64,000 bases of DNA, taken from assembly GCA_965178125.1 (NCBI GenBank), contig OZ237737.1, forward strand, positions 1,550,001 through 1,614,000, given 5' to 3'. Below, piece after piece: positions 1-64,000 of this stretch. Under the pieces are notes generated by a model. That model searched no databases and was not told where the DNA came from. It saw only the letters and a program-made list of their open reading frames with translations. This DNA comes from Bilabrum cf. latius. Lineage: Eukaryota. Made by a program: the position numbers and the translations under genes. Position 1 is the first letter of the stretch; the number at the start of each line of letters is the position of its first letter.

Positions 1-1716
1 CTTGACGTTCTGGATCGTGATTGTCACGGTGGCGACGGTGCTGCCCCGGCACAGCCTGGGGAACTAATCCGCAGGCAGCTCGCAGGACTCCGAAATGCGC
101 GACTGGAATGCCTCCGGACTGGTCCTGACCTCCCCTGTCCTGAAGTTCTCCCACATCGCCAGGGCTGTGTCCCAGCAGCACTCTGCCTCCTCGGACCACT
201 GCTCCATCTGGTTGGCGCACTGCGCCGAGCACTGGGGGGACGCTACTTCCGGGTTGAGCGGGCTCCGGGTCCTCCTCCCGCACGACCCCGTGATCTCGTA
301 CGTGGCGTAGAACTGCACGGCCAGGCTCTGGCTGAACACGAGCGCGCAGTACTTGTCGTCAGACGGCCGCTTCCCGCAACCGTACTGGGCCATCACGCTC
401 ACCCCGAGGAGATCGACGTGGGCGGCCTGCTCCGCAAACGAGAAGAATGCGCGGGCGCAGGGGATGCAGAATTCGTCCAGGAAAGCCTCGCTCAGCTGGT
501 TCTGCAGGGCCTCTTCGTCAGCGTCGGCCAGGAAGAGCTCCTCCGTCAGCACCTGCGGGAGGCAGAAGTCGGCCGGCACCCCGGCCTTGAGGCACACGAG
601 GTCGTAGAGCACCTCGATGTCTTCCACGTTTGCGACCAAGTCGCCTGCGCCCGCCGCCACGCCCGCGGCCTCGAGGACCACGGAGGTAGTGGACTGGATA
701 TTCGAAGAGATCAGGTTCCTGCACTCGTTGTTGCCGCACGCGTCCGTGACGAGCGCCCTGACGTTGTCGGGCAGGGGCGTATCCGTTGAGTTCCCCACCA
801 GGCCGAGGTCTCGCATGATATCGGTGATTTCCTGGAAGCAGTACTCGCCCCCCTCGTTCTGCGTGCAGAGCACGTCCACCACGGTCACGGCCTGGGCCAG
901 GGCCGCGGGGCACACGCCGCCTGACAGGCTGCCGTCCTCGATGGCGTCCATCGTTGACTGCATGGAGGCGTAGCATGCGGAAGTAGTCACGCAAAGCTCC
1001 CCGGGGTTCAGTTCGATGTTGCTGGAGAACGTCTGCTCGCAGGCCCGGTCCATGTCCTGAATCAGTGAGCAGCACGCAGTCGAATTGTCCCGATCGCAGA
1101 TGCTCTGGACCGGATCGTCGTCGATCTGGAGCCTCCGGCCCGGCAGTATAGAGTAAGACTGCAAAGGAATAGAAAAAGAAGCGTCGTGTGGCGTTGCCAT
1201 GGGATCACATGACTGTTGGGTGCTCGAAAGAGGGCCACAGAAGAACCCGACAGGATCCACCGGTAGGTGCCGCGTGCCTCCTCAATATCCACTGCCAGTG
1301 CTTGCATTCCGGGCACCCAACGCGCTGGCGGAGTCAATGGTAAACGACTAGAATGGTGGTATCAGTTGAGGGCAAAATTGGCTGCCATGATCTCATGGGT
1401 TTGCCTAGTTTTCTTTTGAGTCTGACCCGCCGACCGATTCGGTTTCCCCGCCGTTGTCCGGGGAAGCCAAATACAGCGGCACATACGGCAAAACCAAGGC
1501 CCACATTAGACAATTGCTATCGGAGTTTTCATCAGGTGGTGCACTCACACTGGGATTTAGAACGCGGGCGGCGGTTTGGCCGACTAATTGTCTGGCTTGC
1601 TGCACAGCATCTTTTGCGTCGCTTAGTAGGTGCTCCCCAAAAGATGGAGATGATCCGACAGCGCAATTGGCAAAGACAATTGCGGTTATCATAAATGATA
1701 CTCGTCCGGTCTTCAT
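1..1716 (-). CDS. Cysteine-rich secreted/surface protein of unknown function; runs off the left edge; 5' exon structure unresolved
   Basis: ORF 64..1260 is Cys-rich with repeated CC/CxxC patterns and ends at TAG (64-66). The frame stays open to base 1 (FPRLCRGSTVATVTITIQNVK). A candidate signal-peptide exon starts at ATG 1716 (MKTGRVSFMITAIVFANCAVG) and is followed by a GTGAGT donor. The introns between about 1160 and 1550 could not be resolved. Confidence 0.55.
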
Positions 1717-1944
1717 GGCTTTCAGGCGGAGTGCTGTGGTGGAAACGAACACCCACAGTCCACTGGTAGGCGCCGCGCGGACGAGTTGGCGGAACCACTG
1801 CTGTTGCACACGAGTGCAATAAAATTGAATTTGCCAAGAGAACAGACAACTCTGTTCAGTGTACGTTTGCTTGGGGTGATGCTTGTTTGAGTCTATGAGA
1901 AGGCTCAAGCCTACGGCGCCTCATTGGTTCGTACATTGGCTGTC

Positions 1945-3360
1945 ATGAACAGAGCGTGGAAGCGACAATGGCTGGAACGAGCGTACAACAGAGGCGGCGA
2001 GTCACTACGGGCATGTGCCAGTTGGGTATTGGACTCGCATAAACTGTCCAGCGTTGATGCGGCGGAGCGTGCCTTGCGGCATTTGCTAGTCAAGCAGCCC
2101 GTCCAGCAGGTGCTCGGTAGCTGGCCGGTCGGAGGGCTTCCGGCCGACGTGCACGTGGCAAGCAAACACGTGCTTATCCCTCGGGAAGACACGTACTCAG
2201 TAGCAGCAGTGGCGGCGCGATATGCGCTGGATATCCACGGCAGCCCCGGCCGCGCCATCACTCTGCTTGATTTGGGATGCGGCAGCGGCGTCCTCGGGCT
2301 TGCAGTCGCGGATCTGCTGCAGCGCTCTCGCGCCGGAGAGGACTGCCTGGACATGTACTCCGACTGCATGCAGCCGGCTCGAGAGTTTGCTGCGCCCAGC
2401 TCAGGTGCTGCTCGCCCTCAGAGTACGCAAACCAGCTAGGCGAGCAGCCGCACACTGCGGAGGGACCACAGGCGCACGCACAGGCACAGGCAGGCAGGCT
2501 TGCACCTGGTCGGGGTGGACAAGAGCCGGGCAGCTCTCGCCGCCTTCTCTAAGAACGCTGCGCAGCTCGCATCCGAGTCGGGGGCTCCCTGCGGCACCTG
2601 CTCTTCTTCGTCCCGGCCGTACACATGGCAGGCGGTGGCTGGGGACGCCTCGATGCCTGCCAGCGGCTGGGTCGGGTGGGAAGAGGGGGCCCAGGAGCAG
2701 CACACCGGTAACGCGGCCTCCCTTTTCACCCATCGAGGTCACGCCGATCTTCTCCTGGCTAATCCCCCGTACATTCCCTCGGGGGGTTGGCGTGCGGGGT
2801 GGCTGCGTGAAGGACTTGCGGGCAGCAGCAATAATGAGTCGGGTGCCCTGGCACAGCCGGGAAACGGTCGCCGGTCCCAGGCAGCAGATGAGCCGGGCAT
2901 GTGTTCCCTAGATCCGAGCGTGTTGGCGTACGAACCCGTGGGCGCTCTGGCGGGCGGGGGCATCGACGGTCTAGACTGCGCGAGGGCCTGGATGGAGGCC
3001 GCTGTGGGACCTGCCCCCCCCATCAGGGAACAAGGGAGCCCATCTCGATCAGGACGGTAGGATGGTCACGGCACTGCTGCCAGTGATTCGGCGGGTGGCG
3101 TCGTGAGGGAAGGCACCGTGGCAGTGCTGGAGCTGGACCACGGCCAGCCGGCTGAGCTCGCACGGTGGGCAGACCGCCGGCGGGCATGGAGGCATTGGAG
3201 GGCCACACAATGGGAAGAGGAAGGAGAGGGAAGGATGGGTGTCGCTGAGTGTGCGATGACTCGAACGCTGGGAGCCGTGCTTGCATGGGCGCCCATCGCC
3301 TCCCACAGAGACATGTTCGGGGTGGAGAGGATTCTAGCCATGCGGGCTGTGGAGGTGTGA
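1945..3360 (+). CDS. HEMK1: HemK/PrmC-family release-factor glutamine methyltransferase (organellar HEMK1-like), 2 in-frame TAG
   Basis: Motifs VLIPREDT, LLDLGCGSG, LVGVDKS, ANPPYI, YEP..AL.GG.DGLD and RDMFGVER lie in three same-frame ORFs separated only by TAG (2437, 3058). Ends TGA 3358-3360. Confidence 0.85.
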
Positions 3361-3515: not shown

Positions 3516-4886
3516 TCAGGACTGACAGACAGCCCCGATCACATCCACCGCAGCGATGCCCTTGTTCCCTGGCAGTGGGGCCTGAAATGCCGTCATGAGG
3601 GCAACCGGCGGAGACATGGACGAAGATGACGGTGACCCGCCGGCGCTGGAGTTCCGTGCACCTAGCCCGCCGCTGCTGCTGCTGCTGCTGCTGCCCGCCG
3701 CACCCATGTCCGTCGATGGCGCCTGCATCGGCACCGGCACCATCTAAGGCCAAAGGGAGGGAACGGCCTCTCCCACAGTCACCTGCGGCCGTTCAGGAAA
3801 CGAGAGGGTCTGGTCTGCCCGTAGCAGCGGCTCTTTGGACACCATGGCGCGGACCTGGCACGCCTGCGTGTACGCCACCGGCGGCGTGCCATCGAAGGCG
3901 TCGTCGGTGATGAAGGCCACGGCCAGCCTCCCGCTTCCAGGGCACACGGCCACGGCGGGGGACCCGGCCTTGCGACCAAGAGTACCGGGGAGGTCCCCGG
4001 GGGCATACACCAGGTGGCTGTGCACCCACCCACCGGTGGCCGTGGGGTCGGACGTGATCGCGATCTGCACAGTGAATGAACCCCACCCGGCCTTGCCCCA
4101 GAAGCCCTCGAACCCGCACACCCACCCACCGGCAGGCCCACCCTGTGCACTCGTCACACCGCCCGAGAGGGTCCGTGCCACGCCTCCAAATGGCACACAC
4201 TGCGGCATCCCATTCCTGGATCCGTTGGTGGTCTGGATCTGCGCGAACCCGGGAGCCCAAGTGCGCCCCCCGTCCGCGCTCACGCGCTGCACCACGTCCT
4301 GCGCGTACTGGCCGGGGTACCCGGGGCGAGGCCTCTCGCGGGAATAGGCGACGTGCAGCTCCAGGGGAGATGATGTGCTGCTGCTCGACGCCGGCGCGTG
4401 GAAGAGGAAGGGCTCCCACACGGCGTGCGTGCGGTTGTGGTCCGCAATCGTGGAGCGGAGTGACCACGTGTGCCCGCCGTCCACGCTTGCATGAACGCGC
4501 AACCGATAGTGCGAGCACAATGGAATCGGTCCGCCCGTGTTGGTACAATTTACGTGGTGCCTGTAGGCGACCACGAACTCATCCTGGTCCTCGGTGGACT
4601 GCGCAATGAAGCAGTTCGCTAGATCCACACCTTTCCAGGTATCTTCGACAACCACACCACGATTATACCAGGTCTACCCCCCATCATGAGACGTAAACCA
4701 CGAAATTTGATGCAGTTTACCGATCTGCGGCGTTTCTGCGCATGCGATAAGGGTGCCGTTCTGCAAAGAAGAGACACGCGGGTAGTACGATGCCGGCGGG
4801 GCCATCACGTGGGTCTCGAGTCCTCTAAGTGCAAACACGTCGAGGAAAAAACATGATAGTACAAAAACTAGTAACAAGGCCGGCAT
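3516..4886 (-). CDS. Secreted BNR/Asp-box beta-propeller glycoside hydrolase (GH93/sialidase-like), 2 in-frame TAG
   Basis: Signal peptide MPALLLVFVLSCFFLDVFA. Asp-boxes SHDGG*TW, SVDGGHTW and SADGGRTW. Motifs YPR, WEPFL, RNGMP and GSP. TAG at 4674-76 and 3744-46; ends TGA at 3516. Confidence 0.75.
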
Positions 4887-5068
4887 ATCTTGAAAAGCAA
4901 TAAGCAGTTTCAACAGCAACTAGGTTTGCGGAACCATGAATTGCGCGGCGTCGAGGCCGTTGTTGCAGCTGGAAGTGCGGTCGAATAGCACGACAAGCAC
5001 TCTTTGATTCGCGTCATAAATTTTATTAGCGAACGCAATCAGGCGCATTATCTCCCAGACGGGCCGAC

Positions 5069-8000
5069 ATGGGCGATGTTTTGAATCTCATTGTCGAGTA
5101 CGCCAGGCTAGGTCTCTACCGCCACATTCAGACCGTATGCACAGAAGTACGCAAGAAGAAAGGAAAGGACCCGAACCTGATCTTCTGGGGCGCTTATGGA
5201 TAGGGATATGAAGGTGAGCCTCGATTGATCCTGCGTACAGGGGCACCATGTGCTTCGCGCAACAGATTTTAGTGAGTGTTGCAAATGTTGCCAGCCGACC
5301 ATTTCTCGCAGGGAATCCAGCCGAAGCAATCCGAGAATTGGATTCTTTGCGGGGCCGGCGAGAGGCAGAGCTCCCCGCCCTCGTGCTTGCGGCAGATCTG
5401 CACAGGAGAGCCAAAACTGTGGACCGAGTTGCGTTGCGAGCTGTCGAAGACGACATTCCCAGGGCAGAATCGCAGGCCGGGGAGCGCGGCCGTGTGCTCA
5501 ACACGCACTACTTGCTCTTGTCGGGAAACGTGCAGGCCGCCATCAAAAACGCCGAGGCCGCGATCACGGCGTCGGCCGAGAGCCCGGCGGCTCACGCCGC
5601 AATGGGGTGGTGCCTTGTGGCCCAGGCCCGCGGCCTGTGCGACAGCGAGGCTCAAGGGGGTGCCTCCAGGGGGCACGTGAGCAGGGGGGTGGTGCAGCTG
5701 GCCCAGCGGGCTCTCGATTCGTTTCGACGCGCCGCCAGCCTGGTGGCCTCTGGGGGTGCCGGCGGGGGTGCGGGCGCGGGTGCGGGTGCAGGGAAGAAGG
5801 ATCTAGGGGTGGAGATGGGCATGTCGAACGCCCTGGTGGCCTGTGGGAAAGCTGAAGAGGCCGTGGGTGTGCTGGGCGAGCTGCAGGTGCGCGCCCCTTG
5901 GTTCATGCCGGCGTACGGCGCCCGGGGCCGCATCCTGTCTGTGGGCAGGCAGTGGGGGGCTGTGCAGGAGCAGGTGGACAAGGCCCTGGGCCAGGACCCC
6001 TTGGACCTGGAGTCTCTGCGGCTCGCAGTCCTGCGAGGGCTCCTGCAAGAAGGGGCCCAGTCGGCCATGGGAGGCACCGTGGGCAGACTGGAGAGCCTGT
6101 GCAGGGCCATCAAGAAGCACGAGCCGGCCAACGTGGAGCTGCTGCTGCGCGTGTGCCAGCCATTCGCGCGGCTGTCGGGGGGCGCGGCCTCTATCCTCAA
6201 GCTCACGCTGGAGCTGGCGCGGCTGGCGCGCACCGTGGACCCGGGATCGTCGGAAGCGGCGGCCGAGTGCGGCCGTCAGGAGGCGCTGCTGGGGAGCTAC
6301 GCGGCCGCGGCAGGCAGCTTCCGCGAGGCCGCCAAGCGCGATGAGGGGAACGTGGAGGCTCTGTGGGGCGCGATCTACTGCCAGATCAAGCTGGGCGACC
6401 TGGAAGACGCCGCGGCGCAGCTGGAGCTGTTCCGCATGGTGCAGGCGAGTGGCGGGCGCAGCTCCAAGGTGGCTCTGCTGGACGCTCTGCTGGCCTGGCA
6501 CAAGGACAGGGATGCGGTGGCGCAGCTCAAAGCACTCGACGAGACCAGAGCTCTCCTGCGGCAGGAGCTTGAGGGGGCGAGGGCGCGGGCGCTGGTGGGC
6601 AGCACGACCATCTTCGAGCTGCTGTCCATCTGGGACCCCCAGCTGCGGCTTGAGGTGGCGGGGGAGTACCTTTAGCACGCTGAGGTCGAGGACGACGACG
6701 TGCACGCGAGCAGCGCGGGGGGCGGCGCGGGGGCGGGCGCGGACGACGAGCTCGGGTTCGCGGGACCCGCTGCGGGCGGCTCCCTGTCCGACTCGGCGGG
6801 GGCAGCGGCCCTTCGGAAGCGAGCGCTGACCGCCGGCCTGGAGCTGCTGTCCGAGGTGTCGGACCTGGCCCCCGGCCTGACGCAGGCCCGCCTCATGATG
6901 GCGCAGACGCACTTCAGGAAGGGCAACCTTGACGAGGCACAGCGCGCGCTGGTGTCCTGCCTCAAGGTGGACCCCTCCTTCGCCGACGCGCACCTGCTCA
7001 TGGCCCAGGTGGCGCTGGCCAAGGACGACGTGCAGGGCGCCAAGGCCTCGCTGGACGAGGCGGTGGCCTACGAGTTCAAGGTCAGGCAGAGGCCCGCCTT
7101 TCAGATGGTGCACGCGCGGGTGCTCCTCGGGGAACAAAAGTTCGCGGAGGCCGTGGACGCGCTGGAGGCGGCCAGGAAGGCGAACCGCGGGCAGATTGAC
7201 GCGGCTCTCGAGGCGGCTCGAAGGGCGGCCGAGGACAAGAAGGCCGGCCGCAGCAGTGGCGGTGGCAGCAGGTCGGGGCCGGCGAGCGGGGCGGGCGCGG
7301 GCGGCGGTGCCGCTGCTGGAAGCGGTGTGACGAGCGCGGGCTCGCTGAGTCGCAAAGAGCTGCTGGAGCTGCTGGTGCTGCTGGCCGAGGCGCTCACGGC
7401 CCTGGGCAAAGTGGACGAGGCGAGCGAGGTGGCCAGAGAGGCTGCCGTGCTGGGCAAGGGGAGCGGCTCCGAGGTCAAGGTGCTGGTGGCACAGTCCAAG
7501 ATCGCCCTGGCCAAAGGGGACGTGGACAGGGCGCTGAGAAAGCTCGGCTCCGTGCCCTACACGGACCCTGCCTTCCGCACGGCGCAGCTCGTACGCGCGG
7601 AAGTGTACCTGCGCTACCGAAGGGACCGCAGCCGGTTCGTGCGGTGCTACTCGGAGCTGGCCGAGAAGCGGCCGGGCCCTCGCAGCCTCGTGGCCCTCGC
7701 GGGCGCGTACCTGCGCGTGCAGATGCCGGACGAGGCCGTGGAGGCGCTGCACAAGGCGCTGGCCATGGCTCCCGACGACCCCGTGCTGGTGCGCAAGGTG
7801 GGCCGCGCGCTCGTGGCCACGCACGACTACCGCGGGGCGGCCGAGTACTACGAGACCGCGCTGGACCGCCAGCTCACGGGGTTTGGAGGGGAGGGCCGGG
7901 GACCCTCGGCCATCGCGGCGGCGGCGGCGGCGCTGGTGAAGCGGAGGGGCGCGTCCCTCGACGCCCCTGTGCGCGCCTCGCTGCGCACCGAGCTGACCGA

Positions 8001-9735
8001 GCTGTACGTGAAGATGAGGCGGTTCGAGGAGGCGGCCGGGCTGGTGGCCGAGGCGCTGGCGGATGAGGCCACGGGCAGCGACGCGGCGGCGCTCGAGGGA
8101 ACCGTGCGCGCTCTGAGGCTCATGGCCCGGGTGCAGCTGGGCGTGGGTGACGCGCCCGCCGCGGAGGAGACCCTGCGGCAGGCTCTCACGGTGCAGGACA
8201 AAGTCTCGGCGGCTCTTCGGGAGGACGCCCCGGAGCTCGTGCAGGGGGCGCGCCGCACGGCCGCCGAGATCTGCCATGAGGTGGGTCAGCTGTGCGAGGA
8301 GGCGGCCGACGGGGGCATCTCCAGCGCGGCTGCACCCCCCGGCGCGGCGGAGACGGCCGCCACGGAGGGCGGCGGCTTCGAGCAGCGGGCGCTGACCAAC
8401 TACAGGGATGCTCTGCGACGAGATGAGACGCACCAGGAGTCCATGCTGGCCCTCGCGCGGCTGCTGATCCGGACGCAGGAGCTGCCCGAGGCTGAGCTGG
8501 TGCTTGGCCGGCTGCAGGCAGCGGCCCCCGGCCTGGAGGAAGCCGGCATCCTATTGGGCGACCTCAAGTTCGCGCAGGGGGAGCCCAGCGAGGCCGTGGT
8601 GCGGTACCAGAAGGTGCTGGAGGAGCACCCCACGAGGTACGACGCGCTGTCCAAGTTCATCGTGCTGCTGCGGAGGAGCTCCCGCATCGAGGAGGCCAAG
8701 CGCTTCATGGACCTGGCCAAGGCGGCGAGCCCACGGGCGGAGAGCGACGCTGGTTTCTGCTACTGCCAGGGCCTGCTGCACCGTGCCAGCCGCGAGCCCA
8801 CGGAGGCCATCTCCAGCTTCAACTAGGCGAGGCACTCCGGTAGGTGGGGCCTGCAGGCCATCGAGGCCATGGTGGACGTGTACGTGTGCCCCGAGGGGGA
8901 CGACCTGTGGGCGGACGCGGGCACAGTCGCGAGGCAGGAGGCCGAGGACGGGGCGCAGGCGGGGGCCGGGCGCGGGGGGGTGCAGGCCCGGGGCGGGGCT
9001 GGCGCTGGGGCTGGGGCAGGGGCCACCAAGGGCGAGGCCCGAGATGCCGAGCAGCGGCAGGCACGTTGGCGCGACAACAGCCGATCGGCCCTCGCCCTCC
9101 TGCGGACCATCCCCCCTAGGATGCGCAAGGCGCACCACGACGTGCTGGCTGCCCTTGCCACGATGGTGCCCCGGAGCAACGAGGCCCTCGGGGAGGCGCA
9201 GGGACTGCTGGAGGGAGTGCTCGCCAGACAGCCTCAGAACGTGCCGGCGCTGCTGGGGCTGGCCACGGCCCACCTGCTGGCGGGCCGCGTGCCCAAGGCG
9301 AGGACGGCGCTCAAGACGCTGGTGGGCGCCAAGTTCGACGCAGAGTCGGCGGACTACTTCGTGCGGGCGTGGCTGCTGCTTGCGGACCTGTTCATCGGGC
9401 AGGGGAAGCACGACCATGCGCTGCAGCTGTGCCAGCAGGCACTCAAGCACGACAGCTCGAGCGGCAAGGCGTGGGAGCACCTCGGGGCCATCATGGAGAG
9501 GGAGGGGGCCTACGCTGACGCGGCGGGGCACTACGAGAGGGCGTGGGCGCTGGAGCAGGAGCAGTCCGCCCAGGTGGGGTACAAGCTGGCCTTCAACTAC
9601 CTCAAGGCAAGGCGGTTCACGAGAGCCATCGACGTGTGCCACAAGGTGCTCAAGACGTTCCCCGACTACGGCGCCATCAAGCGGGACGTGCTTGACAGGG
9701 CCAGGGGGAATCTGAGGAACCCAAAGCCTGAGTGA
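5069..9735 (+). CDS. IFT139: Intraflagellar transport protein IFT139 / TTC21B (TPR protein); intron 5214-5311; 3 in-frame TAG
   Basis: N-terminus MGDVLNLIVEYARLGLY..DP.LIFW.AYG*GYEG|NPAEAIRE; internal KVGRALVATHDY; C-terminal VGYKLAFNYLKA..AIDVCHKVL..FPDY..IKRDVLDRAR. TAGs at 5201, 6673 and 8824; ends TGA. Confidence 0.93.
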
Positions 9736-9894
9736 TTTGTACCGTCGCCATTAGTTTGCGAATTCATCCTCATATCATACTGCTGCCAGTGGTCTCAGCG
9801 CCGACCAGTAGTCACACCACCGGCGAGGCCGGATCGCTCGGACGCCCTCTCATTCGACAAACAGCAAGGCGCGCACGCCCAAGCTCGCTCTGGG

Positions 9895-16800: not shown

Positions 16801-17354
16801 GAGGCCAAAGCGATGCGATTGCGATTGCGGAAGAGGCCAGAGCGGCTGGTTTGAGCGTGGAGAACGCACAGGATGCGAACGATTTGCTCCGCGTGCTTGG
16901 AGTGCGGGGGGCGAGTATTGCGGGCTAGGGCGGCGATGGCGATGGCGCAGCGGGGGAGGAGGCTGAAGGGGAGGGCGAAGAGTGGGAGTGGGGGGCGCTC
17001 GAGGATGGTCTCCGGGAAGAGGAGGAGGAGGATGGGGTGGATGATGAGGATGAGGGGGGTGATGAGGATGGTGTGTCCGATGAGGATGAGGAGGAGGAGG
17101 AGGAGGAAGGCAGGTATGAGGAAGACGAAGAGGACGAGGCTGCTGGTACATACCAGTAGGTGGACGATGAGCAATAGCATTGGGGCGGTAGCGAGGCACC
17201 GATTGTCGATGAAAGGGATCCGCTAGGGGAAGATAATATGGACGCGCGAGCTAGTCCGGGGCTAGATGACACTGCTGCTGCCGCCGCCGACGCGATTCTC
17301 GTTGCTAGCACCAGCGTGCACGCAATGACCGATGCGGACCTGTCTATACCCTGA
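13869..17354 (+). CDS. CABLES-like cyclin-box protein with long acidic insertions; 14 in-frame TAG; start may be 13779
   Basis: Cyclin-box-like LTHSKLQRLR..LAVAALAIMYLQRLV..VNKGNRKVVAACCLLLAHKF ... VTRSEVLSSELAVLSMLGFGL. One frame with no TAA/TGA from 13869 to TGA 17352-54. Confidence 0.75.
15759..15839 (+). repeat. 27-bp tandem repeat x3 (GCACCAGACTAGTTGCAGGGGGAGCTA), in frame, one TAG per unit
   Basis: Read directly from the sequence; encodes APD*LQGEL three times. Confidence 0.95.
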
Positions 17355-17714
17355 GGCGCATATGACCGAGGTGTTGGATCATCACATGTCATCACGTCTG
17401 GACTGTTTTAATCTCCCGTAGGACTGTAGCCTCCGCCAAGCTTGATCGTGTCTATTTGAGTAGTTGAGGGCCTTCTGGGCCGCATACTGACCGTCATGTG
17501 CCGTAGGTCGTACTCGAAGCTTGGATGCCAGAGCTCGTCTCCTACCATGTTCTATGCCGCAGCTGAGATCAACTCTGCGGCTGGATTCAAAGCGCCTATT
17601 GACACTTTTGATTATTATCTATCACCCCCGCTCATTGTGGCTTCCACAACACCTCAAAATTTAGCAGCAGGAGGCATTTTTGTATCTTGTTACACTTGCG
17701 ACAGTTGTTACAAA

Positions 17715-21770: not shown

Positions 21771-21801
<31 letters not shown>

Positions 21802-23890: not shown

Positions 23891-24028
23891 GTTGGGGGGC
23901 TTTTGCTCGGAGACGTGTGCAGTATTCGCACTTTCAGAACGAACAAACCGATACATTTTGAAATAGAACGTTACAAACAACTGCAACTCCGGTTTTGGCG
24001 AATCTCCTCAGCTGTTCTGATCAGGATC

Positions 24029-41416: not shown

Positions 41417-41573
41417 GGCGGAGTCGTTGCGTTAGGTGCCACTAATTGCTGTGCCTGGCTTGCCGTGGTTCCGCTGATGCTCATTGAAACGTGTGGTTTT
41501 ACCGCGCAAACATGAATACAGGATTCTGCGGCGAATCTGGCTGCAAAGCAACACTGCTGGAACGTCTGCTCCA

Positions 41574-55300: not shown

Positions 55301-58300
55301 GACGGGACGCGACCCCATGGACGTGATGGAGCGCGGGACGGTGGCTGCCAACTCATTCCATTTCGGACATGCCGCGGGGGAGGCGGGTGTCAGCAGCCTG
55401 GACCACGAGCTGGGGGAGGGCATGGAGCACGTGGTGGAAGAGGGATCCAAGGGGCAGTCGTCCACCGAGGGAGGCACCGGCAGCATCGGCGGCCGTCCTT
55501 CCACCGAACTGGACGATGATCTGCTGGAGGGACAGCGGCCCAAGCGGCACCGCTCCAGGCCGACCCCCATCGACGCGAAGCAGAGGGACCACGAGAGGCA
55601 CGCGCCCCTGCAGAAACAGGGCCTTGCCATGGGCCGTGCCGTGACTGCCGCGATGCTTCGGCTGTCACGGCAGCCGTCTCTGGTGCCCATGATGGTGCGG
55701 GCGGGGGCGGGCAAGGCGCTCAAGCTCTGGTTCGAGTGCGGAGACACGGTCATCCGCAGGCGTGCGCTGCTTGGGCTGACCACCCTCTTCGAGTCGGGGG
55801 AGCAGCAGCGGCCAGCACTCCTGGAGCTGGGATTCGTGCGCGTCATGATCGACATGGTGCGGGACGCCTACGGCAAGTACGCCACGGCCGTGTCTCAGCA
55901 GGCGCTGCAGGACGCCGAGGCGCTGTCCACGCGTGCATCGTCTTCGACAAGCAAGCGGCCCTTTGGGTCCAGAATCGAGCAGCAGAGCTAGCGGCCGCTC
56001 GGGGATGCACTGGGCGGAAATGGCCAGGGGCAAGGAGGGACGACAGCCCCGAGCCCCAACGCCGAGGCCGAGGCCCGCTCCCCCACCGACCCAATGGAGG
56101 CAGTGGGAAAGCAGGTGCTCGAGGGCGAGAAGAAAGCGCTGGCATCGATCGACAGGGAACTAGTGGCGGACCCGCTGCTCAGGCGGGCCTTTGACGCCGC
56201 GGCCGGCGCCCACCACGCCGCCGTGCATGACGAGCCTCCTGGGCTCGCCGCTGCTGCCGCGGGGTCTCGCAGCCCCACGCTGGAGCTGGCCTCGGGCGCC
56301 GCCCCGGCCCGCCGGCGGGAGGCCAGAGACGAGTCGAAGTCGCTGTCAGCCGGGCAGCACGCCATCCTGCACCTCCTGGGCCGACCCGAGGGACAGGACG
56401 GGCAGGACCCGTTCAGTGACCAGAAGCCTGACACGAGCGCGGCGAAGCGTCTGTCTTCCATCATGCGCCGGGTGAAGGAGGCAGGCGGCAAGAAGGAGGG
56501 CGGGGACAGCGCGCGGGACTCTCTCCAAGACTCCTCCGTGTCGTCGCTGGGCCTCGAGGTGGGAGGGCCCGCGTCTGCCTCTGCTTCATCCTCCCGACAA
56601 GGCCCCAAGAGCGCAAAGCCTGGCCTTGCGAGCCTTAGCAGCGGTGGGGCTGCGGGCGGGGACACGGCCCGCAGCGTGTTTGAGGAGGCTTCCGCAGCGC
56701 TGGATGCGAACGACCCCGGCCTGGGGATGGCACTGGCTGGGCACGGGTCTGCCTCGAAGCGCATCAGTCTTGACGAGGTGAACGACAGGTGTGCGCAGGC
56801 GATCTGTGGGCTCTCCGATGCGGGACCTGACGTGGCCATGCACCTGCTGTGGCAGGGTGTGGCCGAGGCGCTGGTGCTGCTGGCTCGGGGGTCCTCCTCG
56901 AGGGCTCGGCGGGACAGCCTGCGTGCCATGAGGAACCTCTGCTCCTTCCCGGACCCTGTGCAGCCAGTGGAAGAGGGCCTCGGCGGGGGCTCGTCTACCG
57001 GTCTGGGTGGGGAAAGGATGGCATGCGGTGCCCGTGCCGCAGACACGGTCCGTCGCACGGCCCTCTCTGCCCTGCTGCACCAGGACGCTGTGCCGCTGCT
57101 GGTCAGGGCCGTGTACGCGGCCGCGCTCACGCCGGGTGAGGCCAAGCGACAGCCGAAGCTGCCCCAGGTGCGAGGATCCGGCGGTTCTAGTGGTGCCGGC
57201 GGCGCGACGTTCATGGGAATGCACATCGCGAACAGGTCCGAGGTGATGGCCTCGCTGATGGGGCAGGTGGCGGACGCCGCTGACCATTTGGCCGATGAAG
57301 AGACCAGGCGCAGCGTTGTGTCCGATGGTGTGTTCGTGCTGGCCTGCATGGCCGGTGCCCCGGAGGCGCACGCCGCAATGCTGCGCGTGGGCTCGGGCTA
57401 CTCGATGGAGCTAGAGGAGCGGTCCGCTGCCCTGCTGTCGGGGGATGCATCGGCTCGATCTCCTCTCGCGTGGGAGACCTCTCTGCAGAACAGGCTCGAG
57501 GCCACGCTGGACGAGCTTGACGGGAACCAGGCAGGGGAGGACAAGGATAATGGGGGAGGCAAGGCAGGAGGGCAAGCCGCCGATGCTAGCGGAGAGATGC
57601 CCGGCGGCATATCCTCCACAGAGACTGCTCTGACGGGGGATCGGCGAGGCGATATCAGGCAGCTGGCCGCTCGCCTCCTGCGGCTGAGAAGAGAGAGATT
57701 GCTGCGGCAAGCATGCGGGAAAGCCATAGTGCTCGCCGGAACGCTTGAGACGCTTCTGCTGGTGGCCACGAGGAAATCGGACGAGCGAGCTCGGTGCATC
57801 GGAGCCGTGTGCGAGCTGTCCGTGCACGCGTCCTCCCACGCGCACCTGATGCACCACGGCCTGCTGCCCCTCTTGGCAGCATACGCGCGGGCCGTTGACT
57901 CCACGCTGCGGTATGAGTGCGTGCAGGCTGCCTACAACCTGACGGTGGTGGCGCACGGAGGGGCCGTGCCGCTGCGTGAGGACGATGATGCCATCGCTGA
58001 GGCGGCCGGCAAGGGGGCGGGCGGGGACGGAAAGGGCCCACGAAGCGGTGGCAGTGCCGTGGCTGGCATTTCCTACGGTGCTCTGTCCATGTCGCCCGGT
58101 TCCTCTCGAGAGGAGCAGATGGTGGTGGCAGGCGTTGCCTCTGCACTCACCATCGGCTCTTTGTTCCGTTCGGATGACCCCGTCATCATGGACCTGTCGT
58201 GTCTGGCGCTGCTCAACCTGGCCTACTGCCCGCGTGCGAGGCACAGACTGCTGGAGGAAGGGGTTCTCTGGGCGATGGTGAAACTCGGCGCGGACGGACG

Positions 58301-61300
58301 CACCGAAGCGGAGCGAGCGCAGGAGGACGACGCCGAGCAGCGGGTCATGGCGGTCGCTAGGTCGAGGCACGCCTCCAACGCAGGCTCCAGCAGCCCCAAT
58401 TCCGACGTGGTCGGGATCCGAGGCGCTAGCCCTTCCAGCACAGGATCTCAAGAGGGCGGACCAGACGGCCGCGAGCAGCCCGATCGCTTCGTGTCCGGTG
58501 GTGGGCGAGGTAATGGTGCCGGTCAAGGAGGGGACCGGCAGGGCAAGCCCAAGCGGGGCCACTCCTTGCTGCAGTCTCCGCACGGCATCATCAGCCGCCG
58601 CCGGTCGGTCCGCACCCTTAAGGCCGGCCCCAACAGCAAGGGAACCGCAGCCTCCAGCCGGAAGGGAAGCCCGCTCAGGCAGCCCGGGCAGTCCCCCATG
58701 AACCCCGCGGTGATCACGCTGCAGGAGGGGGGCGACCCGCGGGCCGGTGTCTCTCCACCACCCGAGCACGCCTTCGATTTCGCTTCGCTTGAAGGCGCCG
58801 GGAGCGATTACGCAGGTTCTCCCATGTCGAAGTCTGAGACAGCGGCACGAGAGGTCATGGGCGAGAGCACAACGGCCTCGGAGGCGCTCCGGCTGCTGGC
58901 GGCGGACCCGTTCGCGAGGACGCACGACCGGCAGCTCACGTGCACCCGCTTCCTTCGCGCCCTCGCTGCGTCTGGCTCCTTGGAAAGGAAGGCACTGTCG
59001 GACAAGCGCACGCTGGACGCCATCGTTGCCTTTGCCACCTCTCCTCACCCGCTGGTGCGCGTGGATGCAGGCATCATCGTCTCGGAGCTGGCACGGGACT
59101 CGGCCGTGGCGGGGCTGGCCGTGCGGCGAGGCGCGGTGGCGGCTGTCTGGGAGCTCATGCTGCAGCCAGACCTGCCGTGCGCCGTGCGGGCTGCCGCCGC
59201 GCTGCTACGGATGTGCTGCCAGCCGAGCGCAGCCCTCGCCATCGCCACGACGGGGAACACGGCAGTGCCGCTGCTCACGTCATTCTTCTCGTACGCGGAC
59301 AGGCTGCTTCGAAGGGGTGCCGACCACGGCGCGCTGGCGAGAGGAGAGACGGGCACGGTCAGCACGCCCCAGGCAGCGGGCAAGCGCACGGCCCCGCAGC
59401 CATTCGCTCCCGCGCCGGTGATGCTGGCAGAGGCGCCTAGGGGCAGCTCCCAGCGGTCCATGGACGCAGAAAGCCCCACCCAGGGAACAGGCAGACTAAG
59501 CCCCACCAGGCCGCGGTCCCGCGCCGCCTCGGTGGCCAGCGGGGCGCATCACCTGGCGGAGGCGGCGGCAGATGACCGCGTCACTGCGGAGGATGCGCAG
59601 GCCCTTGCCATCGCTGCGGCAGTTGACCCCGCGGCAGCCGCCACCGAGGCCACCATGCTCTTCGGGCGGCACGTGGGCGTGGGCGGGGGCGGCTGCCTCC
59701 CCGGGGAGGCACGGGCCTTCCGGGACAAGCAGTACCGGAGGGTGCGCGCCCGTCGGATGGTGACCCGGCTAGTCGTCACTGCGGCCCGCTCGCTTGCCCT
59801 GCTGTCTGCCGTGCGCAGCGAGCGGAACCAGATGACCTCTCACGGGGCCCTTGAGCTTGTGGCCCGACTGTGCGTGCTGGCCGAGTCTGCGGGCAGCTCG
59901 TGGGACCGTGAGGATGACGTGCTGCGGCTGGAGGGTGACCAGGCCGCGGATGACGAGTGGAGGGCAAGGCAACTGAGGGAACACCCCGTTTCCTCTTCTT
60001 CTTTTTCTTCTTCTGCTGCTGGCTCTGGCTCTGGCTCTGTCTCGAGCAGCCGGCCGTTCCGCACCACGAGCGGGGGCGGGGGTGCTGCATAGGGCACCCT
60101 GCAGTCCCCTCCCAACACCGCGCGGGTGTTGGAGGGGGATGAAGCCGAGCCCGAGGGAGCCGGGCGCTGGCAGGGCATCTTGCGGGGCATGGGCAGGGAG
60201 CCGCCGACCCTGTGGAGGGACTGGGCCTCAAGCGTGGAAGACGAGGGGGTACACGTCAGGGGGTCGGGCACGGAGTCGCCTGCGCCCGCTACCAACGGAC
60301 AGCTGCCCCCGCGGCCCCGCGTGGTTGCAACCCGTAGAGGTTCCGCAGAGATGCTCTCGTTGCGCGGCGCCGGTCCCGAGGCTGACTGGGTGGGTGGGTA
60401 CAGCAGCGCGCACAACTCGCTTCGGCTGGCGGCAGGCGGCCTGGCGAGCCTCTGTGACACGGTCAGGTCGATGCCCTCCGCCTCGGTGCGGGGGCAGGAC
60501 GCCAAGGGAGAGGCATCGGGGCGCAAGCGGCGGGTCACCACCGGTGACCTGGGCGAGACCGTGGCCCCCCCTGCGGTTGCAGACGAGGAGGTCATGGGCC
60601 CCGCGGGGCAGAGAGCGGGCCGGCTGGCGAGCGTGCGGCGGCTGCTGACCGACTCGGCCGTGTCCTCGGCTCTCAACCTGGTCGCGGACCCAGAGAGGCT
60701 GCACGCGGCACCCACTGATGCCGCCCTCCCCGACTGGCTGGGCGGTGCCTCGACTGCCCTCGAGGCCACCACACCGGGTGTGGCGCTGCTCCTGGTGCGC
60801 TCCCTCCTTAGGGTGGCCCTAGGGTCGGACGCGCCGGAGATGTGCGCTGAAGTGGCCTCGGCCGGGAGGCTCTACGGGCAGGCTATCGTGCACGGCCGTG
60901 GGTCGCTCCGGAGCTTCGAGGAAGGCAGGGCGTCCGCGCCGAGCACAGTTGTGGCTGTGGCCGTGTCTCTCTCCAGCGACCCCCGCCTCGCCCGCGCGCT
61001 GCACTCGGTGGACGTGCTGGACGCGCTGTCCTGCATCGCGTCACTGCCAGCCACTGCCGTGGCGCCGGTGGTGCGAGAGGGCGCATGCACCGCCTTGGCC
61101 CAGATCGTGTGCGCGGCACCTTCCAAGCCGCTGCCGTCCGCCACGCTGACCCGCGTGTCCTGCGTGCTGGCGGCCTCCTGCGAGCGTTGGATCCTGAGGC
61201 CCCCATAGCCTGCATTCCTGCAGAGCGTGCTGTCGCCCGAGCCTGCCGCGATGCCTTCCCCATCCCCGCCCAAGCGCCCCGCCGCACCTGGCAGCACCGC

Positions 61301-64000
61301 GGGCGCGGCGCGAGAAGGATCCTCCCCGAAGCGGACTGTCCCGAGGCTCAGCATCAAGGCAGGCACAGGCGCGCAGCCGGCACAGCGCAGAGGCATGCGC
61401 GCCGTATCTGGGCGCGCATCGATCGCTATCGACGTAACAGCAGCGGACGTGACGCCGCAGGCTCGGGCACAGCTGGTTCGGCTGCTCCACGCGCACCTGT
61501 CGGCCCGCCCCGAGGAGGACGGCTCCTTCGGGTCCAGTGGGCCGGCCATGTGGAGCACGGGCGGGCCCGGCGACATCGAAGGAGACTCGATGCGCGGCGG
61601 GGGAGACCCCCTGGGTTCCTCTGGGTTCCTCTCGAGGGGCCCCGCTGCGCTGGAGGCGGCCAAAGAGGCGGCCACGACCAGGGAAGCGGCCATGGGGATC
61701 GGGCAAGCGCTGGGGCGGGGCACGCAGGGGAAGATCAGGCGAGAGGACGGGGGGTCGCTGGCTAGCGGGAGCCCAGGGCGGGGCGCCGATATGGAGACGG
61801 GCGAGGGCAGCGACGTCCCAGGTGGGCCCGAGGGAGGGGCTTCCCGCAGCAGCCTGGTGCAGACCATGGCCGAGGGATCGGAGCGGGTGGCTGCTCCCTC
61901 GGACCTGCTCCAGCACGGGAGCGCGATCCTGCAGCCGGTCAACAGGGTGAGGCCGCCCCCGGGCTCCGAGGTCGGGGCCAGGCCGCGAGTGATGGTGCGG
62001 CCGGGCCAGCAGAGGCGCGCATCCATCGCCCGCATGCAGCGCTCCACGCAGTCCAGGAGAGAGGCCGTGGCCAGGGCGGGAGGTTTGCAGGCGCTCGCTG
62101 CGGTGGCGCTCGGCTCCACTGGCCTGCTTCGCAAGGCCATCAACGCTGTGAGCCTGAACCGTGCCAGGCCCAAGCGGAGGGTGTACCGGGCCCCGGGAGT
62201 GGGGGTGCAGGACATGCCCGCGGTGGGCTCACCGGGCCGCATGTCGCCTGGCCGTTCGTCGTTTGCCGTGACAGGAGGCTCCCCGACCATCGGGCCCTCG
62301 GTGTCCGGTGCGGTGGGCAGGGCGCCTGCCCTGAGTCCCGGGCGGGGGGGCAGGCCCCACCGCCACTCGATGCACGACATGTCCGGCCTCAACCTGACGG
62401 CCGCGGCCATCCAGGCGCGGTCGGGGCAGGAGACCCAGCACTTGCTTGTAGCTGGCAGCAGCTCCAGCAGCACCGGCAACCAAGGGGCCAGGGAGCGGCC
62501 CGTCTCCGGTGCTGCCAGGGGCCGCCGGGTCCAGCCTGGCTTCGTGGCGGGCCCCGGCGCAGATGGCCCTGCCGGCGCCGCCCCGGAATCTCGCAGCCAG
62601 GGGGTGATGGTGAGCGAGTCCACGGTGGAGTACCTCAAGGGCCTCGAGGCGGTCGCGGGGGACGCGCTGGCCTGCGCCTCGAGGACGGAGAGCGTGCGGT
62701 CCTTCCTGGTGAGCCCGTCGGTGGAGAGGGACCTGGACAAAGCGTGGCAGCACGCCCGTATCACGCCGAGGGCAGAGTCCACCGGGGCTGCGGCGGCTGC
62801 GGCAACGGCTGGCGGCGCTAGGGGGACCTCTGTGGCTGGCCAGGACGGCCGTCCCGGCACTGCCGACAGCATCATTGACACGGGCAGGGGAGGCGCCTCG
62901 GACGGGAGCAAGCCGGTGGGCGTGGCCCGGATCGACCCCTCCATGGCCCCCGTGTGTGTCCGCGCGGCCATCACCCTGGTGCGCACAAGCCGGGTGGGCG
63001 TGCAGAGCAGCGGGGCAGAGATCTTGGCCAGCCTCTCCGAGCAGGACGACCACCGTGCAGTGTTGCTGCAGCTGCCCACCGTGCCGCTGCTGGCCAAGCT
63101 GGCTAGCAGGCCGGGTGTGCTGCCGCAGGTCAAGGCGTTCTGCGCCAGGACGCTGCAGCACTGCTCGGCGGACAAGAGGCTCCTTGCGGCGCCCCCTGCT
63201 GAGGATGGAAGCGGCAGTAGCGGTGCGGTCGCTGGAGCCGGGTCTGGAGGGGAGGAGGGCAGCAGCAGCCCGGGCTTCAAGGCCGGGTCGGATGGCGCGC
63301 AGGGTGGCGGCAGCAGCTCCTCAATGGGCGCGAGCATCGTGCAGAGCATCCTCATGCTGCTGCCCGCCGCTGATGACGCCGATGAGGCCGACCAGAACGG
63401 GGAGGGTGCTGGCGACGAGGAAGACGAGGACGAGGAGATAGACGATCTGGAGCAGATCGAGACCGGTCCTCTCATGGCAGGAGGCGGCGCTGGGACGCCC
63501 AATCCGGGCGATGACACGCCCGGCGGGACCTCGTACTCGCCCTCGCCCAAGCCGGCCGTGCAGCTGCCACCCGAGGTGCTGGCCAAGCACAGGCAGCTGT
63601 TCCGGCCGCAGATCGCGCAGCTCCACGTGCCGCAGAGGGGCTGGAGGGACAGCAGCGTGGAGCTGCCGGCAGTGTTCGGGGGCCGCGGACCAGACGAGTC
63701 ATCGCTGGACGAGTTTGCCCAGTGTGCGTCTGGCCTGCTGTACCCAGCCAGCGTGGTGACTCGTCTGGTGGAAGGTGTGGAGCTGATGGAGCCCGAGGGC
63801 GGCACCAGTTCTGCTGGCTCCAAGTAGGCCGGCGTGCTTGCAGAGTCGTCTGGGATCTTGGGAGACGGGGAGGAGGGTAAGCAGGCAAGCGGAGTCGAAG
63901 CCGAGCAGGGGCAGGGCGAGGGCAAGGAAGGGGACGAGGACGACGACCTGCTGAGCATCCCTGGCGGCAGCGATGCCGGACTCGGGGACGATGGTGGGGA
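52332..64000 (+). CDS. Giant armadillo-repeat protein (>3800 aa, runs off the right edge); intron 52622-52750; 8 in-frame TAG
   Basis: All large plus-strand ORFs (52902, 53628, 54837, 55116, 56094, 60126, 61227) share one frame and are separated only by TAG (52857, 53622, 54717, 55098, 55989, 60090, 61206, 63825). ARM-like segments include CALALAR, AMRNL, AAYNL and ALLNL. Confidence 0.82.

What the first reader, a model, noticed from the sequence alone, without database searches (positions are those of the whole stretch)
64..63827. Non-canonical nuclear genetic code: UAG is a sense codon throughout the window
Seen in the sequence: about 72 in-frame TAGs (manual count) interrupt 18 gene models. 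At each one the frame continues with no frameshift, and at many of them a recognisable domain continues straight across the TAG. No internal TAA or TGA occurs in the spliced models, and the read-through frames close at TGA (16) or TAA (3). Conserved housekeeping genes (IFT139, RecQ, DnaJ, PRDX5, DAD1) are affected, so mass pseudogenisation is implausible. Established knowledge: UAG and UAA almost always change meaning together in nuclear codes. UAG-only reassignment is known from few lineages (the fornicate Iotanema spirale, an uncultured rhizarian, some phyllopharyngean ciliates). Inference: this GC-rich flagellate may be a further independent case. I am not aware of one reported for a stramenopile, but the taxonomy and novelty need checking.
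Basis: partly seen in the sequence, partly recalled or inferred. Interest (0 to 1): 0.97.

Follow-up and report, generated by a model that had tools for sequence, protein, structure and literature searches.

The report
UAG read as glutamine, nuclear genome
In this GC-rich eukaryotic genome the stop codon TAG sits inside almost every gene and is most likely read as glutamine, while TGA and TAA still end genes: a rare kind of genetic-code change in a lineage where it seems unreported.

Summary
In 19 coding segments of 17 genes (17,608 codons) there are 68 in-frame TAG and no internal TAA or TGA. Eight TAGs lie inside Pfam domain matches of IFT139, RecQ, PRDX5, PAQR and a purple acid phosphatase.

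Contigs from three further public runs are spliced, so they hold RNA. They keep 16 of the 22 TAGs in the stretch laid, unchanged; four of these sit on contigs that also carry splice joints.

TAG most likely encodes glutamine:
- A metagenome contig from a relative (86% protein identity) has six in-frame TAGs of its own. Of the 7 TAG sites in the pair, 6 face CAG in the other sequence.
- The nearest PRDX5 relative has Gln-Gln where the window has TAG-TAG.
- TAG use follows CAA use and falls with GC3.

Genes end at TGA (13) or TAA (3).

This is a UAG-only reassignment of the NCBI table 15 type, known from Iotanema and some phyllopharyngean ciliates. The organism is not placed and "stramenopile" is not shown. 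The suppressor tRNA and eRF1 could not be examined. Four literature searches found no report of this case.

The parts
1..1281 (-). Unknown Cys-rich protein gene (runs off the window start); in-frame TAG at 64-66
   Evidence: GC3 0.85 frame; no Pfam match; TAG position
1891..3360 (+). HemK-like methyltransferase gene (the HemK label and its NPPY motif rest on recalled motifs); TAG at 2437 and 3058; ends TGA
   Evidence: Only a weak Pfam methyltransferase match, below cut-off; NPPY seen in the translation; positions
3516..5087 (-). BNR/Asp-box (sialidase-like) gene; TAG at 4920, 4674 and 3744; ends TGA
   Evidence: Weak BNR matches below cut-off. The TAG at 4674 sits in an S-x-D-x-G-x-T-W box (motif recalled) seen in the translation. 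Positions
5218..9735 (+). IFT139/TTC21 gene, one exon of about 1,496 codons; TAG at 6673 and 8824; ends TGA
   Evidence: Six TT21 Pfam domains in one frame on both sides of the TAGs. 120 homologues aligned. Relative L001 has CAG at 8824
11807..13567 (+). PAQR/haemolysin-III family gene; TAG at 13289 inside the domain and at 13559, one codon before the terminal TGA
   Evidence: HlyIII 1.7e-49. The AdipoR alignment continues across the TAG to the downstream IPERW and SHNIFHV stretch
14397..17354 (+). Cyclin-domain gene, start uncertain; 12 TAG counted: 15558, 15741, 15768, 15795, 15822, 15942, 16239, 16554, 16605, 16926, 17157, 17175. Three (15768, 15795, 15822) lie in the 27-base tandem repeat at 15755-15838; a fourth TAG 27 bases upstream (15741) lies just outside it
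   Evidence: Cyclin_N match; positions; tandem repeat
17496..22409 (+). Ion-channel (Ion_trans_2) gene; TAG at 17895, 18021, 20370, 20730, 20919 and 21831; ends TGA
22635..24007 (-). DNAJB13 / radial-spoke-protein-16-like DnaJ gene, at least 3 exons; TAG at 23364 between the J domain and the C-terminal domain; ends TGA
   Evidence: Pfam DnaJ and DnaJ_C; PDB best hits are DNAJB13 and RSP16; first exon seen
24977..27205 (+). Unknown protein gene; TAG at 24992, 25862, 26528, 26768 and 26798; ends TAA
   Evidence: no Pfam match
27304..27870 (-). DAD1 gene, two exons (27536-27870 and 27304-27426, approximate; GT..AG intron read from the sequence); TAG at 27802 in the N-terminal extension downstream of the only usable ATG; ends TAA
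   Evidence: Translations and splice context. The DAD1 identity is recognised from the sequence and was not scanned against Pfam
28046..31684 (+). RING + PHD finger gene; 16 TAG: 28148, 28238, 28397, 28526, 28739, 28823, 29027, 29213, 29216, 29267, 29303, 30512, 30779, 30782, 31115, 31553; ends TGA
   Evidence: Pfam. 10 of the 16 are covered by listed pieces of RNA-run contigs with 0 other letters
31939..39983 (-). Giant ARM-repeat gene (about 2,585 codons in the main exon, GC3 0.95); TAG at 35227; introns 39672-39769 and 39883-39982; ends TGA
   Evidence: Pfam. An 8,060-base spliced contig of run X5 covers the TAG with 0 other letters
41558..43513 (+). Purple acid phosphatase gene; introns 41680-41910 and 42312-42458; TAG at 41940 in exon 2. 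The TAG at 42360 is intronic. Ends TGA
   Evidence: Pfam; a spliced contig of run X7 keeps the TAG; PDB alignment
44077..45995 (-). NRAMP gene; intron 45879-45994; TAG at 44503 and 44338 in the C-terminal tail; ends TGA
   Evidence: Pfam 7e-106; a spliced contig of run X5 covers both; relatives P0241 and P0242
46521..47099 (+). PRDX5-type peroxiredoxin gene; tandem TAG TAG at 46863-46868 inside the Redoxin domain; ends TGA
   Evidence: Pfam; PDB; nearest relative P0361 has Gln-Gln there; contigs of X5 and X6 keep both
47189..51244 (-). RecQ/BLM-type helicase gene; TAG at 50723, 49208 (RecQ_Zn_bind) and 48839 (RQC); ends TAA
   Evidence: Pfam; BLM alignment; 120 homologues
52629..63998 (+). Second giant gene (at least 3,790 codons, runs off the window end); TAG at 52857, 53622, 54717, 55098, 55989, 60090, 61206 and 63825
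   Evidence: the coding-type base pattern continues after 63825
40406..41442 (-). TRAP-alpha gene (intron 41008-41223): the one gene examined that has no in-frame TAG; ends TGA
   Evidence: Pfam; spliced contigs of X5, X6 and X7

Best explanation
[quoted passage not shown] TAG behaves as a rare synonym of CAG and CAA. It makes up about 8% of presumed Gln codons, and is commoner in genes with weak GC3 bias. Shown here: in-frame TAG in nearly all genes; retention in mature mRNA; homology continuing across TAG; TAG facing CAG/Gln in close relatives; and no sense use of TAA or TGA in this window. Inferred from the known cases, not seen here: a tRNA-Gln with anticodon CUA (one change from CUG) decodes UAG, and eRF1 has lost or weakened recognition of UAG.
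For: (1) 68 in-frame TAG and 0 internal TAA/TGA in 17,608 codons of 17 genes. Eight TAGs lie inside Pfam matches above cut-off: IFT139 x2, PAQR, RecQ x2, PRDX5 x2 and the phosphatase. (2) Runs X5, X6 and X7 carry GT..AG or CT..AC joints that the DNA-like run X1 lacks, so they hold RNA. Of the 22 TAGs in 28001-48000, 16 are covered by listed pieces with 0 other letters. Four of them (35227, 41940, 44338, 44503) are on contigs that also cross introns. No base difference and no joint is listed at any TAG. (3) Relative L001 matches at 629 of 732 codons. Its frame has 0 TAA/TGA and 6 TAG, at other positions than the window's. Of the 7 TAG sites in the pair, 6 face CAG and 1 faces ACG. With TAG counted as Gln, 8 of 25 conserved Gln sites differ in codon (32%), close to Glu at 27%, Lys at 25% and His at 38%. 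(4) PRDX5 TAG-TAG faces Gln-Gln in the nearest relative P0361 (66% identity). In the family, Gln is 9 of 148 and 2 of 148 at these two columns. (5) RecQ TAG 49208 column: Q 77, K 31, H 7, N 3, D 1, G 1 of 120. (6) The TAG share per gene falls with GC3 (rho -0.77, p 2e-4) and rises with the CAA share (rho 0.61, p 0.007). (7) If TAA were used like TAG, about 10 TAA would be expected and 0 are seen; 3 genes end at TAA and 13 at TGA.
Against: Not every comparison gives Gln. L001's TAG at its base 721 faces ACG (Thr, window 8188). NRAMP TAG 44503 faces Lys in a 99%-identical strain (P0241) and Ala in the 84% relative. Distant homologues show other residues: IFT139 8824 column K 75, L 17, M 6, A 5, Q 1 of 120; IFT139 6673 column V, L, D in the only 3 rows with a residue; RecQ 48839 column S 44, F 28, G 10, Y 8, L 6; PAQR faces Thr; the phosphatase faces Thr or Val; DNAJB13 faces Val; BLM faces His and Leu. 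CAG to TAG is also the commonest route to a nonsense mutation, so facing CAG alone does not prove Gln. There is no tRNA gene in the window, and no eRF1, peptide or ribosome data. Only 64 kb was seen, so use of TAG as a stop elsewhere is not excluded. The run kinds are guesses by the tool; RNA is inferred from the splice joints.
Confidence: 0.87

Rival explanations
1. UAG is sense, but the code is ambiguous or context-dependent: UAG also ends some genes (as UAA does in Blastocrithidia, or all stops do in Condylostoma), or it is read by near-cognate tRNA-Gln(CUG) with incomplete efficiency.
For: In PAQR a TAG lies one codon before the terminal TGA (13559), so it could be the real stop. Only about 17 gene ends were seen. 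No suppressor tRNA was seen.
Against: No gene in the window needs TAG as its stop. Conserved C-termini (IFT139, PRDX5, DnaJ, the phosphatase, DAD1) run straight to TGA or TAA. There are 68 internal TAGs, including two in tandem in PRDX5 and up to 16 in one gene, which inefficient read-through could hardly tolerate. The coding-type base pattern continues after the last TAG at 63825.
Confidence: 0.08
2. UAG is sense but encodes another amino acid (Lys, Leu, Glu or Tyr, as in other variant codes).
For: Lys is second in the RecQ column (31 of 120), first in the IFT139 8824 column (75 of 120, mostly vertebrates), and faces TAG 44503 in the 99% strain. Leu or Val face TAG at a few sites.
Against: In close relatives, 8 of 9 IFT139 and PRDX5 sites face Gln and none faces Lys or Leu. 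The TAG/CAG exchange rate matches synonymous rates of other two-codon amino acids. TAG use follows CAA use.
Confidence: 0.04
3. The TAGs are not translated at all: assembly errors, RNA editing, tiny introns, or decaying pseudogenes.
For: Some TAGs lie in low-complexity regions with no homologues.
Against: The DNA-like contig of X1 and the RNA contigs of three runs from two other studies agree with the window at the TAGs. No other letters and no joints are listed there. The genes are conserved, spliced and free of frameshifts. A relative at 76% DNA identity keeps an open frame with six TAGs of its own.
Confidence: 0.01

Closest known systems
Iotanema spirale (Fornicata) nuclear code: UAG = Gln, UAA and UGA stops (PMC5304391; abstract and section 9 read)
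   Same: Only UAG is reassigned, to glutamine; UAA stays a terminator. The proposed mechanism is tRNA-Gln(CUA) derived from tRNA-Gln(CUG), plus a change in eRF1.
   Different: In Iotanema UAA is the primary stop. Here TGA ends 13 of 16 complete genes and the DNA is 65% G+C. In the IFT139 tree the window groups with a Symbiodinium-labelled record, but no fornicate sequence was in that tree.
Hartmannula sinica and Trochilia petrani (phyllopharyngean ciliates): UAG = Gln (PMC11687900; abstract and introduction read)
   Same: UAG-only reassignment to Gln, with widespread use of UAG as a sense codon.
   Different: Those are ciliates in which UAA is the preferred stop. This window is a 64-kb, multi-gene, GC-rich stretch with 100-230 base introns, and TGA is the main stop.
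Rhizarian exLh and uncultivated TARA phyllopharyngeans: UAG = Leu (PMC5304391, PMC11687900)
   Same: The meanings of UAG and UAA are uncoupled.
   Different: The amino acid differs: here close relatives show Gln at 8 of 9 IFT139 and PRDX5 sites and Leu at none.
UAR = Gln codes (NCBI table 6: many ciliates, hexamitins, ulvophytes, oxymonads, Amoeboaphelidium)
   Same: A stop codon reassigned to glutamine, probably by the same tRNA route.
   Different: TAA is not a sense codon here: 0 in 17,608 codons against about 10 expected, and it ends 3 genes.
Oligohymenophorea sp. PL0344: UAA and UAG code for different amino acids (PMC10553269; title and start of abstract seen in a listing only, the residues Lys and Glu are recalled)
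   Same: UAA and UAG have different meanings.
   Different: There both are sense codons; here UAA is a stop.

Membership tests
UAG-only reassignment to Gln (NCBI table 15 type; Iotanema type) | In-frame UAG inside conserved protein-coding genes, with homology continuing in the same frame | tested here: met
   68 TAG in 17 genes; 8 lie inside Pfam matches above cut-off
UAG-only reassignment to Gln (NCBI table 15 type; Iotanema type) | UAG is kept in mature mRNA (not edited, not spliced out) | tested here: met
   16 of 22 TAGs in 28001-48000 are covered by contigs of spliced (RNA) runs with 0 other letters; 4 are on contigs that cross introns. These are contigs, not raw reads, and the other 6 are not covered by listed pieces
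UAG-only reassignment to Gln (NCBI table 15 type; Iotanema type) | UAG positions correspond to Gln in homologues | tested here: met
   6 of 7 sites face CAG in the window/L001 pair. Gln-Gln in the nearest PRDX5 relative. Q is 77 of 120 at one RecQ site. Other sites are variable and show no Gln
UAG-only reassignment to Gln (NCBI table 15 type; Iotanema type) | UAA is not used as a sense codon and is used as a terminator | tested here: met
   0 internal TAA in 17,608 codons against about 10.5 expected; TAA ends 3 genes. This covers only this 64-kb window
UAG-only reassignment to Gln (NCBI table 15 type; Iotanema type) | UGA stays a terminator | tested here: met
   0 internal TGA; TGA ends 13 genes, including those with conserved C-termini
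UAG-only reassignment to Gln (NCBI table 15 type; Iotanema type) | A cognate tRNA-Gln with anticodon CUA | not testable with these tools
   No tRNA gene in the window and no whole genome held
UAG-only reassignment to Gln (NCBI table 15 type; Iotanema type) | eRF1 changed in its stop-codon recognition motifs (GTS, NIKS, YxCxxxF) | not testable with these tools
   eRF1 is not in the window and the genome is not held
Context-dependent stop/sense codes (Condylostoma, karyorelicts, Blastocrithidia UAA) | The reassigned codon also terminates genes near their 3' ends | tested here: inconclusive
   No gene needs TAG as its stop. One TAG lies one codon before a TGA (13559). Only about 17 gene ends were seen
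UAR = Gln code (NCBI table 6) | UAA also used as a Gln codon | tested here: not met
   0 in-frame TAA
Site-specific recoding or programmed read-through | Rare events at a few genes with special sequence contexts | tested here: not met
   17 of the 18 genes examined carry TAG, up to 16 per gene, and two are in tandem in PRDX5

The most novel reading that the evidence does not exclude
This is an independent and so far unreported origin of the UAG-to-Gln code in an unplaced, flagellated, GC-rich eukaryote lineage, possibly near myzozoan alveolates by one gene tree. The lineage holds at least two species-level members and a near-identical strain in public data. Unlike every described UAG-only lineage, where UAA is the preferred stop, UGA is the main terminator here. 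That would show that uncoupling UAG from UAA does not depend on an AT-rich, UAA-terminating background.
Probability: 0.55. Interest if true: 0.85.

Novelty: new member of a known kind. Interest (0 to 1): 0.8.

Why it matters
Nuclear code changes outside ciliates are very rare. Cases where UAG and UAA differ in meaning are rarer still: the two papers read name only a handful of lineages. A new case with a contiguous genome, RNA data in three studies and environmental relatives would give a tractable system. It could be used to find the UAG-decoding tRNA, the change in eRF1, and the adaptation of glutaminyl-tRNA synthetase that PMC5304391 (section 9) names as unknown.

There is also a practical point. 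Standard-code gene calling breaks this organism's genes. Public protein sets already hold a 71-residue fragment of its PRDX5 that starts just after the two TAGs (P0364). The assembly should be re-annotated with table 15.

Tried and rejected
- No tRNA and no Rfam family were found in the window.
- The look-up of sequencing runs listed no holder on record as RNA. RNA was inferred only from splice joints after laying.
- Six TAGs of the RING/PHD gene (28148, 28238, 28397, 28526, 29027, 30512) are not covered by the listed RNA-contig pieces. One of them lies in a repeat that the tool skipped. 461 further pieces were not shown.
- PDB alignments for PRDX5, RecQ, PAQR, the phosphatase and DnaJ were too distant to settle the amino acid.
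- An early lead that TAG might be Leu or another hydrophobic residue came from IFT139 6673, the BLM alignment and apparent membrane helices of the channel gene. I dropped it after the close-relative comparisons.
- Placement by best hits failed. IFT139's best named hit is a Symbiodinium-labelled record at 42%. RecQ's best named hits are diatoms and Triparma at 38-42%. NRAMP hits beyond the two close relatives are scattered over many groups.
- The trees used 34 of 120 IFT139 hits (quick tree, the careful search did not finish) and 30 of 120 RecQ hits. In both I chose the rows for having names or high rank.
- The listing of cluster members gave no organism names for the close relatives.
- Supplementary files of the papers were not open; the eRF1 alignments and tRNA tables of PMC5304391 are in them.


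Full report
**What the window is.** The 64-kb window is 59-72% G+C. It carries about 20 eukaryotic nuclear genes on both strands. No whole genome is held for it. Coding frames stand out by third-position G+C of 0.7-0.95 and by Pfam matches:
- IFT139/TTC21, PAQR/haemolysin-III, a cyclin, an ion channel and a RING+PHD protein.
- A BNR protein, a purple acid phosphatase, TRAP-alpha and a RecQ/BLM helicase.
- Two giant ARM-repeat proteins.
- NRAMP, a DnaJ and a PRDX5-type peroxiredoxin.
- DAD1 was recognised in the translations.

The DnaJ is closest to DNAJB13 / radial spoke protein 16. Together with IFT139, this says the organism builds a flagellum.

**Checking the observation.** Read through TAG, the long frames hold 77 TAG. 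I dropped nine before counting:
- 5 in the uncertain first 359 codons of the cyclin frame.
- 1 in a frame with no coding signal (9736-11649).
- 1 upstream of the PAQR start.
- 1 upstream of the last DnaJ exon.
- 1 at 42360, which lies in an intron.

The remaining 68 lie in 17,608 codons of 17 genes, and these frames hold no internal TAA or TGA. Across all six frames of the window, TGA is twice as common as TAG (1341 against 668 of 128,000 triplets; TAA 226). Frames of this total length would therefore carry about 216 TGA or TAA if they were not coding. Eight TAGs lie inside Pfam matches above cut-off (IFT139 twice, PAQR, RecQ twice, PRDX5 twice, the phosphatase). Others lie between two domains of one protein, as in DnaJ. 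Thirteen genes end at TGA and three at TAA.

**Are the TAGs real and in the mRNA?** Eighteen public runs from 12 studies hold parts of 40001-50000. I laid four of them on 28001-48000.
- Run X1 gives one unspliced contig identical to the window, so it is DNA-like and may be the source.
- Runs X5, X6 and X7 come from two other studies. They give contigs that skip 98, 100, 216, 231, 147 and 116 bases with GT..AG ends (CT..AC for minus-strand genes).
- Depth in these three runs varies about 80-fold between genes. They therefore hold spliced RNA, although the tool only guesses their kind.
- Of the 22 counted TAGs in this stretch, 16 are covered by listed pieces with no other letters and no gaps.
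- Four TAGs are on contigs that also cross introns: 35227 in the giant ARM gene, 41940 in the phosphatase, and 44338 and 44503 in NRAMP.
- No base difference and no joint is listed at any TAG.

This rules out assembly error, editing and tiny introns for these sites. The same data showed that the TAG at 42360 is intronic.

**Which amino acid?** Distant homologues gave a mixed picture:
- IFT139 TAG 8824: K 75, L 17, M 6, A 5, Q 1 of 120.
- IFT139 TAG 6673: only three rows have a residue there (V, L, D).
- RecQ TAG 49208: Q 77, K 31, H 7, N 3, D 1, G 1 of 120. RecQ TAG 48839: S 44, F 28, G 10, Y 8, L 6.
- PDB alignments face T, V, H, L, G-E or D-A.

Close relatives settled it.
- A scan of metagenome contigs with IFT139 returned L001, a 2,199-base contig that matches at 629 of 732 codons. 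DNA identity is 75.8%.
- The L001 frame has no TAA or TGA but six TAGs of its own.
- Of the seven TAG sites in the pair, six face CAG in the other sequence, including the window's own TAG at 8824. One faces ACG.
- If TAG is counted as Gln, 8 of 25 conserved Gln sites differ in codon (32%). That is like Glu (27%), Lys (25%) and His (38%), so the TAG/CAG exchange behaves as a synonymous change.
- Among 148 of the 150 listed PRDX5 representatives (two rows over 400 residues were dropped), the nearest one (P0361, 66% identity) has Gln-Gln exactly where the window has TAG-TAG. In the family, Gln is found in only 9 and 2 of 148 at these two columns.
- A member of P0361's cluster sits on a contig of the same length (3,751 bases) as the 84% NRAMP relative P0242. 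This suggests, but does not prove, the same NRAMP-PRDX5 neighbourhood as in the window.
- Within the window, the TAG share per gene falls with GC3 (rho -0.77, p 2e-4) and rises with the CAA share (rho 0.61, p 0.007). That is the behaviour of a non-preferred Gln codon.

Some comparisons run against a simple picture. NRAMP TAG 44503 faces Lys in a 99%-identical strain (P0241) and Ala in the 84% relative. Both sites are in a fast-changing tail.

**TAA, TGA, and TAG as a stop.**
- If TAA stood to TAG as CAA stands to CAG, about 10 in-frame TAA would be expected; none is seen.
- TAA ends RecQ, DAD1 and the gene at 24974-27205.
- Conserved C-termini run straight to TGA or TAA.
- One TAG lies one codon before the TGA of PAQR (13559) and could be a real stop.
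- After the last TAG (63825), the coding pattern of the giant gene continues.

A dual stop/sense role for TAG cannot be excluded from 64 kb.

**Mechanism.** Shown: UAG is read through in nearly every gene, and its sites match Gln. Inferred by analogy with section 9 of PMC5304391: the only anticodon that reads UAG but not UAA is CUA, one change from tRNA-Gln(CUG), and eRF1 should have lost affinity for UAG. The window has no tRNA gene, and eRF1 is not in it.

**Who is it?** This is not resolved.
- IFT139's best named hit is a Symbiodinium-labelled record at 42%.
- In a quick tree of the query plus 34 of the 120 hits, the window groups with that record and two unnamed ones (SH-aLRT 100). The tool flagged these rows for unusual composition, and the careful search did not finish.
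- In a RecQ tree (30 of 120 hits) the window sits with two unplaced sequences (support 90), outside Triparma plus diatoms.
- NRAMP hits beyond the two close relatives are scattered across many groups.

"Stramenopile" is therefore not shown, and an alveolate affinity is only a lead.

**Comparison with what is known.** UAG-only reassignment is described for:
- Iotanema spirale (Gln) and the rhizarian exLh (Leu) (PMC5304391; abstract and section 9 read).
- Phyllopharyngean ciliates (Leu once, Gln twice) (PMC11687900; abstract and introduction read).

In those cases UAA is the preferred or primary stop. Here TGA is, in a 65% G+C genome.

Four full-text searches found no report of such a code in a GC-rich non-ciliate flagellate or a stramenopile:
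- UAG, nuclear genetic code, reassignment, UAA, stop codon.
- genetic code, UAG, stramenopile, glutamine, tRNA.
- UAG, glutamine, genetic code, protist, from 2024.
- UAG, sense codon, UGA, termination, flagellate, transcriptome.

The library lacks most subscription journals, and supplements were closed.

**Verdict.** The finding is real. It is a new member of a known and rare kind: the UAG-to-Gln, table 15-type code. At least one related organism shares it. The amino acid is well supported but not proven. The tRNA, eRF1 and the organism's place in the tree remain to be found.

Noticed in passing
window 15755-15838: A 27-base tandem repeat (3.1 copies, 98% matches) inside the cyclin-domain gene. 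Each unit carries an in-frame TAG, giving repeated ..PD-TAG-LQGELA.. units.
   Followed up: partly
window 46521-47099, with proteins P0364 and P0241: Public protein sets hold a 71-residue, 99%-identical fragment of this PRDX5 that begins just after the two TAGs. It comes from a contig of the same length (4,137 bases) as the 99% NRAMP relative. Standard-code gene calling has evidently cut the gene.
   Followed up: partly
window 38237-38285: In the giant ARM gene, an RNA-run contig (X5) replaces 47 bases of a low-complexity stretch with 5 other letters, a net loss of 42 bases (14 codons). Many loose ends pile up at 38215-38241. This looks like a length-variable repeat or strain difference, not an intron.
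   Followed up: no
window 39852 and 39854: Two base differences (C>A, T>G) are seen in one contig each of X1 and X5. The contig aligns for only 64 bases with 9 other letters, so it is probably a paralogous or repeated element rather than an allele.
   Followed up: no
window 30407-30528: read laying skipped this stretch of the RING/PHD gene as a repeat. It contains the TAG at 30512, which therefore has no RNA check.
   Followed up: no
window 22635-24007 and 5218-9735: The DnaJ gene is closest to DNAJB13 / radial spoke protein 16 (PDB hits at 1e-66 and 1e-45), and IFT139 is intact. The organism therefore has a motile flagellum with radial spokes.
   Followed up: partly
window 31939-39759 and 52629-63998: Two very large, single-exon ARM-repeat genes (about 2,585 and at least 3,790 codons) with only weak ARMC5-type matches. 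The first has extreme codon bias (GC3 0.95) and high depth in the RNA runs. Their function is unknown.
   Followed up: no
L002 (metagenome contig, 4,004 bases): A second IFT139-like contig, only 29% identical to the window. It comes from an unrelated organism and was not used.
   Followed up: no
window 24491-24814 and 23852-24490: Two neighbouring short frames with CHCH/COX6B-like Cys motifs (weak Pfam COX6B match, 19 bits, below cut-off). These may be small mitochondrial intermembrane-space proteins; gene models were not worked out.
   Followed up: no
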